A stretch of DNA of 64,000 nucleotides from the human T2T-CHM13v2.0 reference genome, Homo sapiens: the NCBI RefSeq assembly GCF_009914755.1, contig NC_060933.1; one strand, written 5' to 3'. The position numbers were made by a program, and so were the translations under genes. Shown in pieces: positions 904 to 62,718 of this stretch. The number at the start of each line of letters is the position of its first letter. The stretch's first letter is position 1. The notes beneath the pieces are model-generated. The model was given only the letters and a program-made list of their open reading frames with translations, searched no databases and was not told the origin of the DNA.

Positions 904-918
904 GGAATCTTCCGGAAT
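904..918. promoter_or_regulatory. Canonical heat-shock element (gGAAt-cTTCc-gGAAt), first intact example of a recurring module
   Basis: GGAATCTTCCGGAAT matches nGAAnnTTCnnGAAn exactly. Other left-arm copies include 2342, 4058, 6129, 11765, 12010, 13808, 14661, 15439, 16307, 16736, 17559 and 26224. Motif match only; occupancy is not shown. Confidence 0.6.
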
Positions 919-2155
919 GGAATGGAATGGAATGGAATGGAATGGAATGGAATGCAATGGATTCAACTCGATTGCAATGGAATGGAATAGAATGGAATGG
1001 AATGGAATTAAACCGTATAGAATGGAATGGAATGGAATGGAATGGAATGGAATGGAACGGAACGGAACGGAAAGGAGTGGAAAGGAATGGAATGGAATTG
1101 TATGGAATGGAATGGCATGGTACAGAATAGAATGGAATGGAAAGAATAGGAATGGAGTGGAATCGAATGGAATGGAATGGAATGGAATGGAATCAACCCG
1201 AGTGCAGGGGAATGTAATGGAACGGAATGCAATGGAATGGAATCATCCGGAATGGAATGGAATGGAATGGAATGGAATGGAATGGAATGGAATCAACCCG
1301 AGTGCAATGGAATGGAGTGGAACGGAATGGAATGGAATGGAACAACCCGAATGGAATGGAATGTAATGGAGAGTTAGGGAGTTGAATAGAATCAATCCGA
1401 ATGTAATGGAATGGAATGGAATGGAATGGAATGGAATGCAATGGAATGGAATCAACCCGAGTGCAATGGAATGGAGAGGAATGGAATGGAATGGAATGGA
1501 AACTACCCGAATGGAATGGAATGTAATGGAGTATAAGGGAATTGAATAGAATCAATCCGAATGGAATGGAATGGAATGGAACGGAATGTAATGGAATGGA
1601 ATGGAATGGAATCAACCCGAGTGCAGGGGAATGGAATGGAATGGAATGCAATGGAATGGAATCATCCGGAATGGAATGGAATGGAATGCAATGGAATGGA
1701 ATGGAATGGAATCAACCCGAGTGCAATGGAATGGAGTGAAATGGAATGGAATGGAATGGAAACAACCAGAATGGATTGGAATATAATGGAGTGTAAGGGA
1801 ATTGAATAGAATCAATCTGAATGTAATGAAATGGAATGGAACGGAATGGAATGGAATGGAATGGAATGGAATGGAATGGAATGGAATGCAATGGAATGGA
1901 ATCAACCCGAGTGCAATCGAATGGAATCGAATGGAATGGAATGCAATGGAATGGATTCAACTTGAATGGAATGGAAAGCATGGAATTAACACGAGTGGAA
2001 TGGCATGGATTGGAATGGAATGGAATGGAATCAACCCGAGTACAGGGGAATGGAATGGAATGGAATGCAATGGAATGGAATCATCCATAATGGAATGGAA
2101 AGGAATGGAATGGAATGGAATGGAATGGAATGGAATGGAATGGAATGGAATCAAC

Positions 2156-2169
2156 TCGATTGCAATCGA
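2156..2169. repeat. Recurring perfect 14-bp palindrome TCGATTGCAATCGA (example)
   Basis: Self-reverse-complementary. It recurs in most subunits of both arms, e.g. 27196-27209 just right of the breakpoint. Confidence 0.85.
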
Positions 2170-57900: not shown

Positions 57901-58510
57901 TTGCATTCCATTCCATTCCATTCCCCTGCATTCGCGTTGATTCCATTCCATTCCGTTCCATTCCATTGCATTCCATTCCATTCCGTTCCGTTCCATTCCA
58001 TTCCATTCCATTCTATTCGGGTTAATTCCATTCCATTTCATTCGATTGCAATCGAGTTGATTCCATTCCATTTCATTCCATTCCTTTCCATTCCATTACG
58101 GATGATTCCATTCCATTGCATTCCATTCCATTCCATTCCCCTGTACTCAGGTTGATTCCATTCCATTCCATTCCAATCCATGCCATTACACTCGTGTTGA
58201 TTCCATTCTTTCCATTCCATTCAAGTTGAATCCATTCCATTGCATTCCATTCAATTCGATTCCATTCGATTGCACTCGGGTTGATTCCATTCCATTGCAT
58301 TCCATTCCATTCCATTCCCCTGTACTCGGGTTGATTCCATTCCTTTCCATTCCAATCCATGCCATTCCACTCGTGTTGATTCCATTCTTTCCATTCCATT
58401 GAAGTTGAATCCATTCCATTGCATTCCATTCCATTCCATTCCCCTGCAGTCGGGTTGATTCCATTCCATTCCATTCCATTCCCTTCCATTCCATTCCGTT
58501 CCGTTCCATT
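54911..58510 (-). repeat. ~3.6-kb tandem duplication, copy 2
   Basis: Head-to-tail with copy 1. It differs mainly in pentamer-run lengths and a few substitutions (e.g. CCACATGATT at 52331 vs CCAGATGATT at ~55926). Confidence 0.92.
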
Positions 58511-61500
58511 CCATTCCATTCCATTCTATTCGTGTTAATTCCATTCCATTCAATTCCATTCCATTCCAATCGAGTTGATTCCATTCCATTCCATTCCATT
58601 CCATTCCACTCCATTCCAGTCCTTTCCATTCCATTCCACTCGGGTTGATTCCAATGTATTCCTTTCCATTCCATTCCATTCCATTGCAATCGAGTTGATT
58701 CCATTGCTTTGCATTCCTTTCCATTCCATTCCATTCCGGATGATTCCATTCCATTGCATTCCATTCCATTCCATTCCATTCAGGATGATTCCATTCCATT
58801 GCATTCCATTCCATTCCATTCCCCTGCACTCGGGTTGATTCCATTCCATTCCACTCCATTCCGTTCCATTCCATTCCATTCCATTGTATTCGGGTTAATT
58901 CCATTCCATTCCATTCCATTCCATTCCATTCCATTCCATTACAACCGAGTTGATTCCATTCCATTCCATTCCATTCCAGTCCTTTCCATTCCATTCCACT
59001 CGGGTTGATTCCATTCTATTAGTTTCCATTCCATTCCATTCCCTTCCATTCCACTCTGGTTGATACCATTCCTTTCCATTCCACTCCAATACATTCCCTC
59101 CTATTCCACTCGGAACGATTCCATTCCATTCCATTCCATTCCATTCCATTTCATTCCATTCCATTTCGTTCCATTCCATTCTATTCCGTATCATTCCATT
59201 CCATTCCATTCCATTCCATTCCATTCCATTCCATTCCATTGTACTCGGGTTGATTCAATTCCATTGCATTCCATTCCATTCCATTCCATTCCATTCCATT
59301 CCATTCCGTTGCATTCCATTCCATTACATTCGGATTGATTCTATTCAACTACCTTACTCTCCATTACATTCCATTGCACTCGGGTTGATTCCATTCCATT
59401 CCATTCCATTCCATTCCATTCCATTCCATTCCGGATGATTCCATTCCATTGCATTCCGTTCCATTACATTCCCCTGCACTCGCGTTGATTCCATTCCATT
59501 CCATTCCGTTCCATTCAATTCCATTCCATTACAATTCTTTCCATTCCATTCTATTCCGTACCATTCCATTCCATTCCATACCATTCCATTCCATTCCATT
59601 CCATTCCGTTCCATTCCGTTCCATTCCGTTTCATTCCATTCCATTCCATTCTATTCGGATTAATTCCACTCCATTCCATTCCATTCCATTCTATTCCATT
59701 CCATTGCAATCGAGTTGAATCCATTGCATTTCATTCCATTCCATTCCATTCCGGAAGATTCCATTCCATTGCATTCCATTCCATTCCATTCCCCTGCACT
59801 CGCGTTGATTCCATTCCATTCCATTCCATTCCATTCCATTCCGTTCCGTTCCGTTCCATTCCATTCCATTCCATTCCATTCCTTTCCGTTCCATTCCATT
59901 CCATTCCATTCCGTTCTATTCGGGTTAATTCCATTCCATTCCATTCGATTGCAATCGAGTTGATTCCATTCCATTCCATTCCATTCCATTCCATTCCATT
60001 CCATTCCATTCCATTCCTTTCCATTCCATTACGGATGATTGCATTCCATTGCATTCCATTCCATTCCATTCCCCTGTACTCGGGTTGATTCCATTCCATT
60101 CCATTCCAATCCATGCCATTCCAATCGTGTTGATTTCATTCTTTCCATTCCATTCAAGTTGAATCCATTCCATTGCATTCCATTCCTTTCGATTCCATTC
60201 TATTGCACTCGGGTTGATTCAATTCCATTGCATTCCATTCCATTCCATTCCATTCCATTGCGTTGCATTCCATTCCATTACATTCGGATTGATTCTATTC
60301 AACTCCCTTACTCTCCATTACATTCCATTCCATTCGGGTTGTTCCATTCCATTCCATTCCATTCCACTCCATTCCATTGCACTCGGGTTGATTCCATTCC
60401 ATTCTATTCCATTTTATTCCATTCCGGATAATTCCATTCCATTGCATTCCATTCCATTACATTCCCCTGCACTCGCGTTGATTCCATTCCATTCCATTAC
60501 ATTCCATTCAATTCCATTCCATTACAATTCGTTCCATTCCATTCTATTCCGTACCATTCCATTCCATTCCGTACCATTCCATTCCATTCCATTTCATTCC
60601 GTTCCGGTCCATTCCGTTCCATTCTATTCCATTCCATTCTATTCGGGTTAATTCCATTCCATTCCATTCCATTCCATTCTATTCCATTCCATTGCAATCG
60701 AGTTGAATCCATTGCATTTCATTCAATTCCATTCCATTCCATTCCATTCCGGAAGATTCCATTCCATTGCATTCCACTCCATTCCATTCCCCTGCACTCG
60801 CGTTGATTCCATTCCATTCCATTCCATTCCATTCCATCCATTCCGTTCCGTTCCGTTCCATTCCATTCCATTCCATTCCATTCCATTCCATTCCATTCCA
60901 TTCCGTTCCGTTCCGTTCCGTTCCATTCCATTCCATTCCATTCCATTCCATTCCATTCCATTGTATTCGGGTTAATTCCATTCCATTCCATTCGATTGAA
61001 ATCGGGTTGATTCCATTCCATTCCATTCCATTCCATTCCATTCCATTCCATTCCATTCCTTTCCATTCCATTACGGATGATTCCATTCCATTGCATTCCA
61101 TTCCATTCCATTCCCCTGTACTCAGGTTGATTCCATTCCATTCCATTCCAATCCATGCCATTCCACTCGTGTTGATTCCATTCTTTCCATTCCATTCAAG
61201 TTGAATCCATTCCATTGCATTCCATTCCATTCCATTCCCCTGCAGTCGGGTTGTTTCCATTCAATTCCATTCCATTCCATTCCATTCCATTCCATTCCGT
61301 TCCGTTCCATTCCATTCCATTCCATTCTATTCGGATTAATTCCATTCCATTCCATTCCATTCCATTTCATTCCATTCCAATCGAGTTGATTCCATTCCAT
61401 TCCATTCCATTCCATTCCATTCCATTCCATTCCATTTCGTTCCATTCCATTCTATTCCGTATCATTCCATTCCATTGCATTCCATTCCATTCCATTCCAT

Positions 61501-62718
61501 TCCATTCCATTCCATTCCATTCCATTCCATTGTACTCGGGTTGATTCAATTCCATTGCATTCCATTCCATTCCATTCCATTCCATTCCTTTGCATTCCAT
61601 TCCATTACATTCGGATTGATTCTATTAAACTCCCTTACTCTCCATTACATTCCATTCCATTCGGGTTGTTCCATTCCATTCCATTCCATTCCACTCCATT
61701 CCATTGCACTCTGGTTGATTCCATTCCATTCCATTCCATTCCATTCCATTCCGGATGATTCCATTGCATTGCATTCCGTTCCATTACATTCCCCTGCACT
61801 CGCGTTGATTCCATTCCATTCCATTCCATTCAATTCCATTCCATTACAATTCGTTCCATTCCATTCTATTCCGTACCATTCCATTCCATTCCATACCATT
61901 CCATTCCATTCCATTCCGTTCTATTCCGTTCCATTCCATTCCATTCCATCCTATTCGACTTAATTCCATTCAATTCCATTCCACTCCATTCTATTCCATT
62001 CCATTGCAATGGAGTTGAATCCATTGCATTTCATTCCATTCCATTCCATTCCATTCCATTCCGGAAGATTCCATTCCATTGCATTCCATTCCATTCCATT
62101 CCCCTGCACTCGCGTTGATTCCATTCCATTCCATTCCATTCCGTTCCGTTCCATTCCATTCCATTCCGTTCCGTTCCATTCCATTCCATTCCATTCTATT
62201 CGGGTTAATTCCATTCCATTCCATTCTATTGCAATCGAGTTGATTCCATTCCATTCCATTCCATTCCATTCCATTCCTTTCCATTCAATTCCTTTCCATT
62301 CCATTACGGATGACTCCATTCCATTGCTTTCCATTCCTTTCCATTCCCCTGTACTCGGGTTGATTCCATTCCATTCCATTCCACTCCATTCGGTTCCGTT
62401 GCATTCCATTCTATTGCATTCCATTCTATTCGGGTTAATTCCATTCCATTCTATTCCATTCCATTCCATTCCATTCCATTGCAATGGAGTTGATTCCATT
62501 CCATTCCATTTCATTCCGGATGATTGCATTCCATTGCATTCCATTCCATTCCATTCCCCTGCACTCGTGTTGATTCCATTCCCTTCCATTCCATTCCATT
62601 CCGTTCCATTCCATTCCATTCCATTCTATTCCTGTTAATTCCATTCCATTCCATTCCATTCCATTCCATTCCATTGCAATCGAGTTGATTCCATTCCATT
62701 CCTTTCAATTCCATTCCA

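What the first reader, a model, noticed from the sequence alone, without database searches (positions are those of the whole stretch)
904..62072. A perfect heat-shock element is a built-in module of the satellite (about 7 per 5.8-kb unit)
Seen: plain (GGAAT)n supplies only head-to-tail nGAAn units. The module GGAATCTTCCGGAAT inserts an inverted nTTCn exactly in register, giving nGAAn-nTTCn-nGAAn. HOR copy 1 has seven (11765, 12010, 13808, 14661, 15439, 16307, 16736), and dozens occur across both arms, usually following CAACGCGAGTGCAGGGG. A sister module, GGAATCATCCGGAAT, is one base off. Several variants change only 'n' positions (5296 TTCggGAA, ~31960 GAAggTTC, ~43540 TTCtgGAA, ~50810 GAAgtTTC), while others break the core (17804, 23618, 27057). 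Established: HSF1 trimers bind this consensus, and HSF1 binds Sat III arrays to form nuclear stress bodies and drive Sat III lncRNA. Inference: this module, rather than the pentamer itself, may determine which HSat3 subfamilies respond to HSF1, and HOR copy number would tune the response.
Basis: partly seen in the sequence, partly recalled or inferred. Interest (0 to 1): 0.8.

Follow-up and report, generated by a model that had tools for sequence, protein, structure and literature searches.

The report
Canonical heat-shock element inside chr9 HSat3
The chromosome 9 satellite array carries thousands of copies of a textbook binding site for the heat-shock factor HSF1, which probably helps explain why stress bodies form there, though the general idea is already published.

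Summary
GGAATCTTCCGGAAT occurs 41 times in the window, and 46 sites fit nGAAnnTTCnnGAAn.

The 15-mer is one of three main haplotypes of a conserved ~65-bp block. The others are TCATCCGG (34 copies) and TCATCCGT (39 copies). The element-creating T sits almost only on the CAACGCGAGT-G background, so it looks like one A>T change spread by amplification.

Genome-wide there are 12,700 exact copies. None lie on chr1-8, and chr9 array density accounts for the total. Yq12 DYZ1 carries three different perfect elements per 3.55-kb unit, about 14,000 in all. Four chr15 HSat3 samples (13 kb) had none.

So perfect-element load separates the two primary stress-body arrays from chr15, but this particular module is chr9-only. 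I found no element-specific constraint on core positions.

Prior art covers the gist: perfect elements in Y SATIII (PMC7889540), "putative HSEs" at 9q12 as an unpublished observation (PMC9032817), and HSF1 motif-dense HSat3 sub-regions matching HSF1 ChIP-seq (10.1101/2024.10.22.616524). The exact 15-mer string appears in no searchable paper.

Verdict: a real, probably functional HSF1 site of modest novelty.

The parts
904..918 (+). perfect HSE 15-mer GGAATCTTCCGGAAT
2342..2356 (+). perfect HSE 15-mer
4058..4072 (+). perfect HSE 15-mer
5296..5310 (+). perfect HSE, n-position variant GGAATCTTCGGGAAT
6129..6143 (+). perfect HSE 15-mer
7177..7191 (+). perfect HSE 15-mer
7412..7426 (+). perfect HSE 15-mer
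8387..8401 (+). perfect HSE 15-mer
9240..9254 (+). perfect HSE 15-mer
11765..11779 (+). perfect HSE 15-mer (local 5.8-kb HOR copy 1)
12010..12024 (+). perfect HSE 15-mer (HOR copy 1)
13808..13822 (+). perfect HSE 15-mer (HOR copy 1)
14661..14675 (+). perfect HSE 15-mer (HOR copy 1)
15439..15453 (+). perfect HSE 15-mer (HOR copy 1)
16307..16321 (+). perfect HSE 15-mer (HOR copy 1)
16736..16750 (+). perfect HSE 15-mer (HOR copy 1)
17559..17573 (+). perfect HSE 15-mer (HOR copy 2)
19607..19621 (+). perfect HSE 15-mer (HOR copy 2)
20470..20484 (+). perfect HSE 15-mer (HOR copy 2)
21253..21267 (+). perfect HSE 15-mer (HOR copy 2)
22111..22125 (+). perfect HSE 15-mer (HOR copy 2)
22540..22554 (+). 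perfect HSE 15-mer (HOR copy 2)
23373..23387 (+). perfect HSE 15-mer (HOR copy 3)
25376..25390 (+). perfect HSE 15-mer (HOR copy 3)
26224..26238 (+). perfect HSE 15-mer (HOR copy 3)
29915..29929 (-). perfect HSE 15-mer
30884..30898 (-). perfect HSE 15-mer
31959..31973 (-). perfect HSE, n-position variant (GAACCTTCCGGAA)
32892..32906 (-). perfect HSE 15-mer
33585..33599 (-). perfect HSE 15-mer
35882..35896 (-). perfect HSE 15-mer
40086..40100 (-). perfect HSE 15-mer
40405..40419 (-). perfect HSE 15-mer
43540..43554 (-). perfect HSE, CpG-decayed n-position variant (GAATCTTCCAGAA)
45708..45722 (-). perfect HSE 15-mer
46396..46410 (-). perfect HSE 15-mer
48946..48960 (-). perfect HSE 15-mer
50809..50823 (-). 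perfect HSE, n-position variant (GAAACTTCCGGAA), the array-wide GGAAACTTCC haplotype
52673..52687 (-). perfect HSE 15-mer
54285..54299 (-). perfect HSE 15-mer
56268..56282 (-). perfect HSE 15-mer
57880..57894 (-). perfect HSE 15-mer
59748..59762 (-). perfect HSE 15-mer
60746..60760 (-). perfect HSE 15-mer
62058..62072 (-). perfect HSE 15-mer
17804..17818 (+). core-broken copy GGAATCTTCCGAAAT (same change recurs one HOR period later)
23618..23632 (+). core-broken copy GGAATCTTCCGAAAT (HOR descendant of the same event as 17804)
27057..27071 (+). core-broken copy GGAATCTTGCGGAAT
12315..12339 (+). example of the sister block, GCAATGGAAT followed by GGAATCATCCGCAAT; sister modules in all: 34 TCATCCGG and 39 TCATCCGT
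11000..27098 (+). stretch with the local ~5.8-kb higher-order period (about 2.8 copies)
27098..27099 (.). inversion junction: GGAAT-rich on + to the left, ATTCC-rich on + to the right

Best explanation
GGAATCTTCCGGAAT is a canonical three-unit heat-shock element: GGAAT, then inverted GGAAG, then GGAAT, in exact 5-bp register. It lies inside a conserved ~65-bp block of the chr9 HSat3 (B5) repeat. That block runs terminator CAAC(G/C)CGAGT, then (G/A)CAGGGG, then AAT(GGAAT)3-GCAAT-GGAAT, then the module.

The element was made by a single A>T change (TCATCC to TCTTCC) on the CAACGCGAGT-G version of the block. Unequal exchange and HOR amplification then copied it to about 12,700 exact copies. Counting n-position variants, there are about 14,000 perfect sites. 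They lie about 0.5 per kb over roughly 27 Mb, with patchy local density.

On heat shock, HSF1 trimers bind these sites. Their sheer number on one locus concentrates HSF1 into a nuclear stress body and drives SatIII transcription.

Shown here: the sequence, its register, copy number, chr9 restriction, haplotype linkage and patchiness.
Taken from papers: HSF1 binds 9q12 SatIII directly, HSF1 ChIP tracks motif-dense HSat3 sub-regions, and the chr9 array including this window's coordinates is heat-induced.
Inferred: that this 15-mer, rather than the near-perfect sister modules or the pentamer run, is the main bound element.

I see no sign that it is maintained by selection. It may be a neutral variant that happens to be a good site.
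For: Sequence and context:
- Searches give 41 exact copies and 46 perfect three-unit sites in 64 kb.
- One search shows the module at a fixed place in a conserved block.
- In one search, across 315 anchored blocks in 234 kb of chr9 array, TCTTCCGG pairs with CAACGCGAGT-G 60 times and with CAACCCGAGT or CAACCCAAGT 3 times. CAACGCGAGT-G also carries TCATCCGG 29 times. This fits one origin on that background.

Copy number and distribution:
- One search gives 12,700 exact copies genome-wide against a control of 3.
- One search gives 13,956 copies for GAAnnTTCCGGAAT.
- In one search, all 17 HSat3 samples from chr9 49.2-76.4 Mb together carry 87 perfect sites, 72 of them the exact 15-mer.
- (72+41)/234 kb times 27.2 Mb is about 13,100, which matches the genome total.

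Comparison with other arrays:
- Y DYZ1 has three other perfect elements per 3.55-kb unit. One of them has 4,836 copies, of which 46 were listed on C1-C23 and the rest lie on Y at about 3.55-kb spacing.
- The forward-strand excess of 14,199 for GGAANNTTCNNGAA fits about 14,000 elements on Y.
- chr15 HSat3 has 0 perfect sites and 0 two-unit pairs in 13 kb.

Literature:
- PMC2173303 (abstract and passages): recombinant HSF1 shifts the chr9 SatIII clone pHuR98 and is competed by a consensus element. The consensus probe itself contains GGAATATTCC.
- 10.1101/2024.10.22.616524 (passages; supplement rows): HSF1 motifs sit in sub-regions of HSat3 arrays and heat-shock HSF1 ChIP-seq is enriched there. 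ChIP enrichment on HSat3 is 3.12 after heat shock against 1.09 without.
- PMC11622622 (section 16): heat shock raises transcripts across the chr9 B5 array, shown for chr9:52.7-73.0 Mb, which includes this window.
Against: - No experiment ties HSF1 to this 15-mer specifically.
- PMC2173303 reported binding to pHuR98 while stating that its NGAAN units are not arranged as a canonical element. Non-canonical SatIII sequence can therefore bind.
- Some chr9 samples have almost no module (0 at 60.4 Mb, 1 perfect site at 49.2 Mb). Yet PMC11622622 describes induction across the entire array.
- In the preprint's table, JASPAR HSF1 motif enrichment is higher in A1, A5 and A2 arrays than in chr9 B5, although those are not primary sites.
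- The sister TCATCC module (20,563 copies) differs only at the base that pairs with the third position of GAA. From recalled knowledge, that is the least critical position, so it may bind nearly as well.
- There is no element-specific constraint. In 234 kb, single-change variant types at core versus n positions are 6 versus 8 for the element, 8 versus 9 for TCATCCGG and 4 versus 8 for TCATCCGT.
Confidence: 0.65

Rival explanations
1. Neutral passenger. HSF1 recruitment to 9q12 is carried by the mass of imperfect sites, array size and chromatin state. The imperfect sites would be the near-perfect TCATCC modules and other partial arrangements of NGAAN units. The perfect 15-mer would then be one neutral haplotype with no special role.
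For: - The module is one of three roughly equally common haplotypes of the same block: 41, 34 and 39 copies in the window, and 96, 136 and 80 in 234 kb.
- It has a single-origin linkage pattern.
- There is no element-specific core constraint by variant types.
- HSF1 shifted pHuR98 although its units were described as non-canonical (PMC2173303).
- Induction is reported across the whole array (PMC11622622) although module density drops to 0-2 per 10 kb in places.
Against: - pHuR98 needed over 12.5 ng HSF1 against over 3 ng for the consensus probe.
- The chr15 array, of similar pentamer content but with no inverted pairs in 13 kb, is not named as a primary target in PMC7889540. Other pericentric regions are described as lower-affinity sites in PMC9032817.
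- ChIP enrichment follows motif-dense sub-regions.
- Genome-wide copy counts lean towards core preservation in the element class. Unit-1 core variants are about 360 against about 1,190 n variants, compared with about 1,830 against about 655 in the sister class. These counts are dominated by a few amplified haplotypes.
Confidence: 0.22
2. The module is read on its other strand as an ETS class I site, or as both. The reverse complement ATTCCGGAAGATTCC contains CCGGAAG, so the same A>T change also creates an ETS core.
For: - The sequence itself shows this (reverse complement).
- In the preprint's motif table, ELK4 enrichment is 0.0 in every non-chr9 array shown and 1.2-3.5 in many chr9 B5 arrays (columns 1-355 of 490 seen). 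This matches the chr9-only distribution of the module.
Against: - The enrichment is small. GABPA is about 1.1 or 0.
- The preprint states that ETS motifs are generally not enriched in HSat3, apart from ETV5-FOXO1.
- The site carries a CpG in a heterochromatic array. ETS class I factors are methylation-sensitive (recalled, not tested).
Confidence: 0.05
3. Inert sequence: the match to the consensus is real but the sites are never occupied, because the array is packed heterochromatin.
For: No call here measures occupancy.
Against: Published direct binding, ChIP and heat-induced transcription at this array.
Confidence: 0.05

Closest known systems
Perfect heat-shock elements in Yq12 SATIII (DYZ1), PMC7889540
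   Same: Both are canonical three-unit elements interspersed in a pentamer satellite and amplified with its higher-order unit. Both sit at a primary HSF1 and stress-body locus. The paper already suggests that element number may explain differing HSF1 affinity between Yq12 and 9q12.
   Different: The sequences differ. In my 7.2-kb Y sample they are GGAATGTTCTGGAAG, GGAAGGTTCTCGAAA and GGAACTTTCTTGAAT: three per 3.55-kb unit and none with a central CpG. The paper counts four in X06228.1. The chr9 module is a single 15-mer at variable spacing.
HSF1 motif-dense sub-regions of HSat3 arrays, bioRxiv 10.1101/2024.10.22.616524 (also PMC11526998)
   Same: It makes the same claim at map level: HSF1 motifs are unevenly distributed within HSat3, and HSF1 ChIP-seq after heat shock is enriched where they are dense.
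   Different: That work uses JASPAR matrix matches in ~50-bp strings. It names no element, block or haplotype. Its per-array enrichment ranks chr9 B5 below A1, A5, A6 and A2. Exact perfect-site counts instead single out chr9 and Y.
Proximal heat-shock element of the HSP70 promoter
   Same: Both have inverted nGAAn units in 5-bp register. The probe used in PMC2173303 contains GGAATATTCC, the satellite pentamer and its complement.
   Different: A promoter element is single-copy, sits beside a defined start site and (from recall) has more than three units. The satellite module has exactly three inverted units flanked by direct repeats, in thousands of copies and with no mapped start site.
pHuR98 (D9Z3) chr9 SatIII clone bound by HSF1 in vitro, PMC2173303
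   Same: It belongs to the same array, and direct HSF1 binding was shown.
   Different: The authors described its NGAAN units as not organised like a canonical element. I could not see its sequence, so I cannot say whether it holds the TCTTCC or a TCATCC module.

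Membership tests
Canonical heat-shock element (HSE) | At least three contiguous nGAAn units in alternating orientation at 5-bp register | tested here: met
   GGAAT-CTTCC-GGAAT: 41 exact copies and 46 matches to GAAnnTTCnnGAA.
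Canonical heat-shock element (HSE) | Sequence-specific binding of trimeric HSF1 to this element in vitro | not testable with these tools
   Only array-level data exist: HSF1 shifts pHuR98 and is competed by a consensus element (PMC2173303).
Canonical heat-shock element (HSE) | Heat-induced occupancy in cells | not testable with these tools
   Published ChIP-seq is enriched in motif-dense HSat3 sub-regions and is 3.12 against 1.09 on HSat3 overall. It is not resolved to the 15-mer.
Canonical heat-shock element (HSE) | Heat-inducible transcription of adjacent DNA | not tested
   PMC11622622 reports induction across the chr9 B5 array, shown for chr9:52.7-73.0 Mb, which contains the window.
Canonical heat-shock element (HSE) | Evolutionary constraint on core positions relative to n positions | tested here: inconclusive
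   Copy counts lean towards constraint but are driven by amplified haplotypes (93 of 98 in-array position-5 variants are one type). Variant types show no element-specific pattern.
HSat3 subfamily B5 (chr9 array) | Pentamer GGAAT/ATTCC satellite lying in the chr9 q12 array annotated B5 | tested here: met
   There are 7,118 pentamers in 64 kb. The window is chr9:63.80-63.86 Mb (hub note), inside 'hSat3_9_3(B5)' chr9:52.7-73.0 Mb. I did not run the subfamily classifier itself.
ETS class I binding site | CCGGAAG core | tested here: met
   It is present on the reverse strand of every exact module. Binding was not tested, and ELK4 motif enrichment is chr9-only but weak.

The most novel reading that the evidence does not exclude
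The two largest HSat3 arrays, chr9 B5 and Y A6, each independently acquired in-register inverted nTTCn pentamers. Together they hold about 28,000 of the genome's 42,943 GGAA-type perfect elements. On this reading, perfect-element load, not pentamer content or motif-matrix enrichment, decides which arrays are primary stress-body sites. The three near-identical chr9 block haplotypes (TCTTCCGG, TCATCCGG, TCATCCGT) then form a natural allelic series that would let existing HSF1 ChIP or CUT&RUN reads test this directly. Convergent gain would hint at selection for HSF1 capture.
Probability: 0.25. Interest if true: 0.6.

Novelty: already known. Interest (0 to 1): 0.3.

Why it matters
HSF1 capture by 9q12 SatIII is the classic case of a transcription factor awakening constitutive heterochromatin. 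Even so, reviews still speak of 'HSE-like' or 'putative' elements at 9q12. Naming the exact element gives the field a concrete, testable site: about 12,700 copies, chr9-only, and one base away from two equally abundant sister modules. [quoted passage not shown] It does not add a new kind of mechanism.

Tried and rejected
- **Dinucleotide-shuffle significance.** I rejected it as a meaningful null for a satellite, because the copies are not independent.
- **Core versus n-position substitution test with genome-wide IUPAC counts.** The result looked like constraint. One search then showed that one haplotype (GGAAACTTCC) makes up 93 of the 98 in-array position-5 variants listed. Copy counts therefore do not measure substitution rates. 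The type-level count in 234 kb shows no element-specific pattern.
- **Wider sampling of other arrays.** I used much smaller samples instead. The Y and chr15 densities therefore rest on 7.2 kb and 13 kb. The first Y sample (40.1 Mb) fell in an AT-rich non-HSat3 block and was uninformative.
- **A1, A2, A4 and HSat2 arrays.** I did not sample these.
- **Per-chromosome tallies.** The genome tool does not give them. I inferred chr9 restriction from listings sorted by contig (nothing on C1-C8) and from density times length. Copies on C10-C24 are not excluded directly. Six minus-strand sister-module copies in the 49.2-Mb sample (L011) did not appear in the listing, so listings may be incomplete even though totals agree with my samples.
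- **Primers for Y SATIII.** They are not in the main text of PMC7889540. I did not open its supplement.
- **pHuR98 sequence.** It is available only as a figure, which I could not see.
- **Two recent HSF1 condensate and Mediator papers.** Neither has element-level information.

Full report
**Observation**

The 15-mer GGAATCTTCCGGAAT occurs 41 times in the window. Twenty-four copies are on the + strand (904-26,224) and 17 on the - strand (29,915-62,058). The strand switch follows the satellite's own inversion. GGAAT is on + up to about 27.1 kb and ATTCC is on + after it. The junction lies at 27,098/27,099, inside a terminator.

The generic pattern GAAnnTTCnnGAA has 46 matches. These are the 41 exact copies plus five n-position variants at 5297, 31960, 34995, 43541 and 50810. 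The core-broken copies at 17804, 23618 and 27057 are as described. The first two carry the same change one HOR period apart, so they represent one event.

The seven sites given for 'HOR copy 1' are correct. However, a 5.8-kb period exists only between about 11.0 and 27.1 kb. Other parts of the window have dominant periods of about 0.85-0.9 kb, 3.0 kb and 3.6 kb.

**What the module is part of**

Listing every 15-mer within two mismatches of the module gave 143 hits with three main forms:
- TCTTCCGG, 41 copies
- TCATCCGG, 34 copies

All three sit at the same place in a conserved block. The block runs GGAAT-CAAC(G/C)CGAGT-(G/A)CAGGGG-AAT(GGAAT)3-GCAAT-GGAAT-module.

The forms are linked to flanking markers. 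I examined 315 anchored blocks from 234 kb of the chr9 array (the window plus 17 ten-kb samples):
- TCTTCCGG goes with CAACGCGAGT-G 60 times, and with CAACCCGAGT or CAACCCAAGT 3 times.
- TCATCCGT goes with CAACCCGAGT-A 63 times.
- TCATCCGG goes with CAACCCGAGT-G 61 times and with CAACGCGAGT-G 29 times.

The simplest reading is that one A>T change on the CAACGCGAGT-G haplotype created the element, and amplification did the rest. In the window, 26 of the 41 exact copies follow CAACGCGAGTGCAGGGG within 50 nt, and 12 have no terminator there.

Once an in-register nTTCn pentamer sits in a GGAAT run, a perfect element is automatic. On the G-rich strand the window has 190 TTC triplets. Forty-nine have GAA five bases upstream, 49 have GAA five bases downstream, and 46 have both. 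The dinucleotide-shuffle statistics therefore say little.

**Genome-wide picture**

The own genome is searchable: 24 contigs, with the window on C9.
- The exact 15-mer has 12,700 copies (6,460 + 6,240), against a control of 3.
- Listings are ordered by contig. Looser patterns listed scattered hits on C1-C8, none of which was the exact 15-mer. There are therefore none on chr1-8.
- Of 20 ten-kb samples taken along chr9 from 46.0 to 78.0 Mb, the 17 between 49.2 and 76.4 Mb are HSat3. These hold 87 perfect elements (0-9 per sample), of which 72 are the exact 15-mer.
- (72+41)/234 kb times 27.2 Mb gives about 13,100, which equals the genome total within sampling error.

The module is therefore a chr9-array feature with patchy density. 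Copies on C10-C24 are not excluded directly.

**Other arrays**

A 7.2-kb sample of Yq12 DYZ1 (period 3,554 bp) has six perfect elements, three per unit. Their sequences are GGAATGTTCTGGAAG, GGAAGGTTCTCGAAA and GGAACTTTCTTGAAT.

The first of these has 4,836 copies genome-wide. Forty-six were listed on C1-C23 and the rest lie on C24 at about 3.55-kb spacing.

GGAANNTTCNNGAA has 42,943 matches (28,571 forward, 14,372 reverse), against a control of 9,369. The forward excess of 14,199 fits three elements in each of about 4,790 uniformly oriented Y units. The chr9 family contributes 13,956. The remaining roughly 14,600 are no more than the single-copy background suggested by 100 hits in the first 16 Mb of chr1. 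That leaves little room for another satellite array with thousands of such sites.

Four samples of the large chr15 p-arm HSat3 array (13 kb, 69-73 ATTCC per kb) contain no perfect element and not even a two-unit inverted pair. That this array is subfamily A5 is recalled and was not checked against coordinates.

**Selection test**

| Class | Unit-1 core variants | n-position variants (1, 5, 6) | Exact copies |
|---|---|---|---|
| Element class | about 360 | about 1,190 | 12,700 |
| Sister TCATCCGG class | about 1,830 | about 655 | 20,563 |

This points towards core preservation in the element class. However, the counts are of copies, not events. Of 622 position-5 variants, 98 of the first 100 listed lie in the array, and 93 of those are a single type, GGAAACTTCC, spread along it.

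I then counted variant types in the 234-kb sample.

| Class | Core types (9 positions) | n types (6 positions) |
|---|---|---|
| Element | 6 | 8 |
| TCATCCGG | 8 | 9 |
| TCATCCGT | 4 | 8 |

The three classes do not differ. The test is inconclusive, and I claim no selection.

**What is known**

- PMC2173303 (abstract and passages) showed HSF1 granules at 9q11-q12. It also showed direct binding of recombinant HSF1 to the chr9 clone pHuR98, weaker than to a consensus element and competed by it. The authors noted that the clone's NGAAN units are not arranged canonically.
- PMC7889540 (passages) found four perfect elements in a 3,564-bp Y SATIII unit and showed HSF1 ChIP there. It proposed that more elements at Yq12 than at 9q12 could explain differing affinity.
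- PMC9032817 (passages) mentions putative elements in 9q12 sequences as an unpublished observation. It says the number of sites is unknown.
- PMC10813801 (passages) still writes 'HSE-like'.
- The preprint 10.1101/2024.10.22.616524 (abstract, passages, Methods section 13 and supplement rows) reports that HSF1 motifs occupy sub-regions of HSat3 arrays and that heat-shock HSF1 ChIP-seq is enriched there. In its per-array table of 489 arrays, median HSF1 motif enrichment is as follows:

| Subfamily | Median HSF1 motif enrichment |
|---|---|
| A1 | 22.3 |
| A5 | 18.6 |
| A6 (Y) | 16.1 |
| A2 | 14.6 |
| B5 (chr9, 235 arrays) | 10.0 |
| B3 | 6.3 |
| A4 | 0 (61 of 96 arrays are zero) |

- PMC11622622 (passages and section 16) shows heat-induced transcripts across the chr9 B5 array. 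The region shown includes this window's coordinates.
- The literal 15-mer occurs in no paper of the searchable library.

**Reading**

The module is a real canonical element and very probably an HSF1 site. Its number and concentration on one locus give a plain account of stress-body nucleation at 9q12. Perfect-element load separates chromosomes 9 and Y from chr15 in my small samples.

The specific module cannot be the discriminator among subfamilies, because it exists only on chr9. The sister TCATCC module differs only at the base opposite the third position of GAA. By recalled knowledge that is the most tolerant position, so it may also bind. That is why the read-level comparison of the three haplotypes is the decisive test.

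Because the phenomenon, the idea and a motif-versus-ChIP map are already published, I rate this as already known with a useful sequence-level sharpening.

Noticed in passing
window 27,098-27,099: This is an inversion junction of the satellite, inside a terminator (…GGAATCAACCCGA|TTCCGTTCC…). The G-rich strands of the two arms point towards each other, so the predominant G-rich SatIII transcription would converge here.
   Followed up: partly
window 1-64,000: The higher-order period changes along the window: about 0.85-0.9 kb (1-11 kb), 5.8 kb (11-27.1 kb), 3.0 kb (27.1-45 kb) and 3.6 kb (45-64 kb). Element density differs between arms: 24 per 27.1 kb against 17 per 36.9 kb.
   Followed up: partly
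window, e.g. 2915, 4991, 5869 (+); 39 copies in all: A third block haplotype, GGAATCATCCGTAAT, is tightly linked to CAACCCGAGT-A upstream and GGAATGGAAAGGAAT downstream.
   Followed up: yes
reverse strand of every exact module, e.g. window 904-918: The reverse complement reads ATTCCGGAAGATTCC, which contains the ETS class I core CCGGAAG. In the preprint's motif table, ELK4 enrichment is zero in all non-chr9 arrays shown and 1.2-3.5 in many chr9 B5 arrays.
   Followed up: partly
window 50,809-50,823 and chr9 array at large: GGAAACTTCCGGAAT is an array-wide minor haplotype that keeps the element intact. Position-5 variants total 622 genome-wide, and 93 of the 98 listed in the array are this type, on both orientations.
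   Followed up: yes
G000 C1-C23 (listing): The Y-type element GGAATGTTCTGGAAG also has 46 dispersed copies on autosomes and X, against a control of 4. This suggests it also lies in some interspersed repeat or in genuine genomic elements.
   Followed up: no
window, 37 copies, context AATGGATTCAACTTG: This is another recurrent TTC-containing module on the G-rich strand. It is not in element register and its meaning is unknown.
   Followed up: no
L018 (chr9:60.40 Mb) and L011 (chr9:49.20 Mb): These stretches of the chr9 array have 0 and 1 perfect elements per 10 kb despite normal pentamer density. They are natural internal controls for HSF1 occupancy.
   Followed up: no
The genome search listings: Six minus-strand sister-module copies in the 49.2-Mb sample (L011) are absent from the listing, although totals agree with my samples. 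Listings may not be complete for very abundant patterns.
   Followed up: partly
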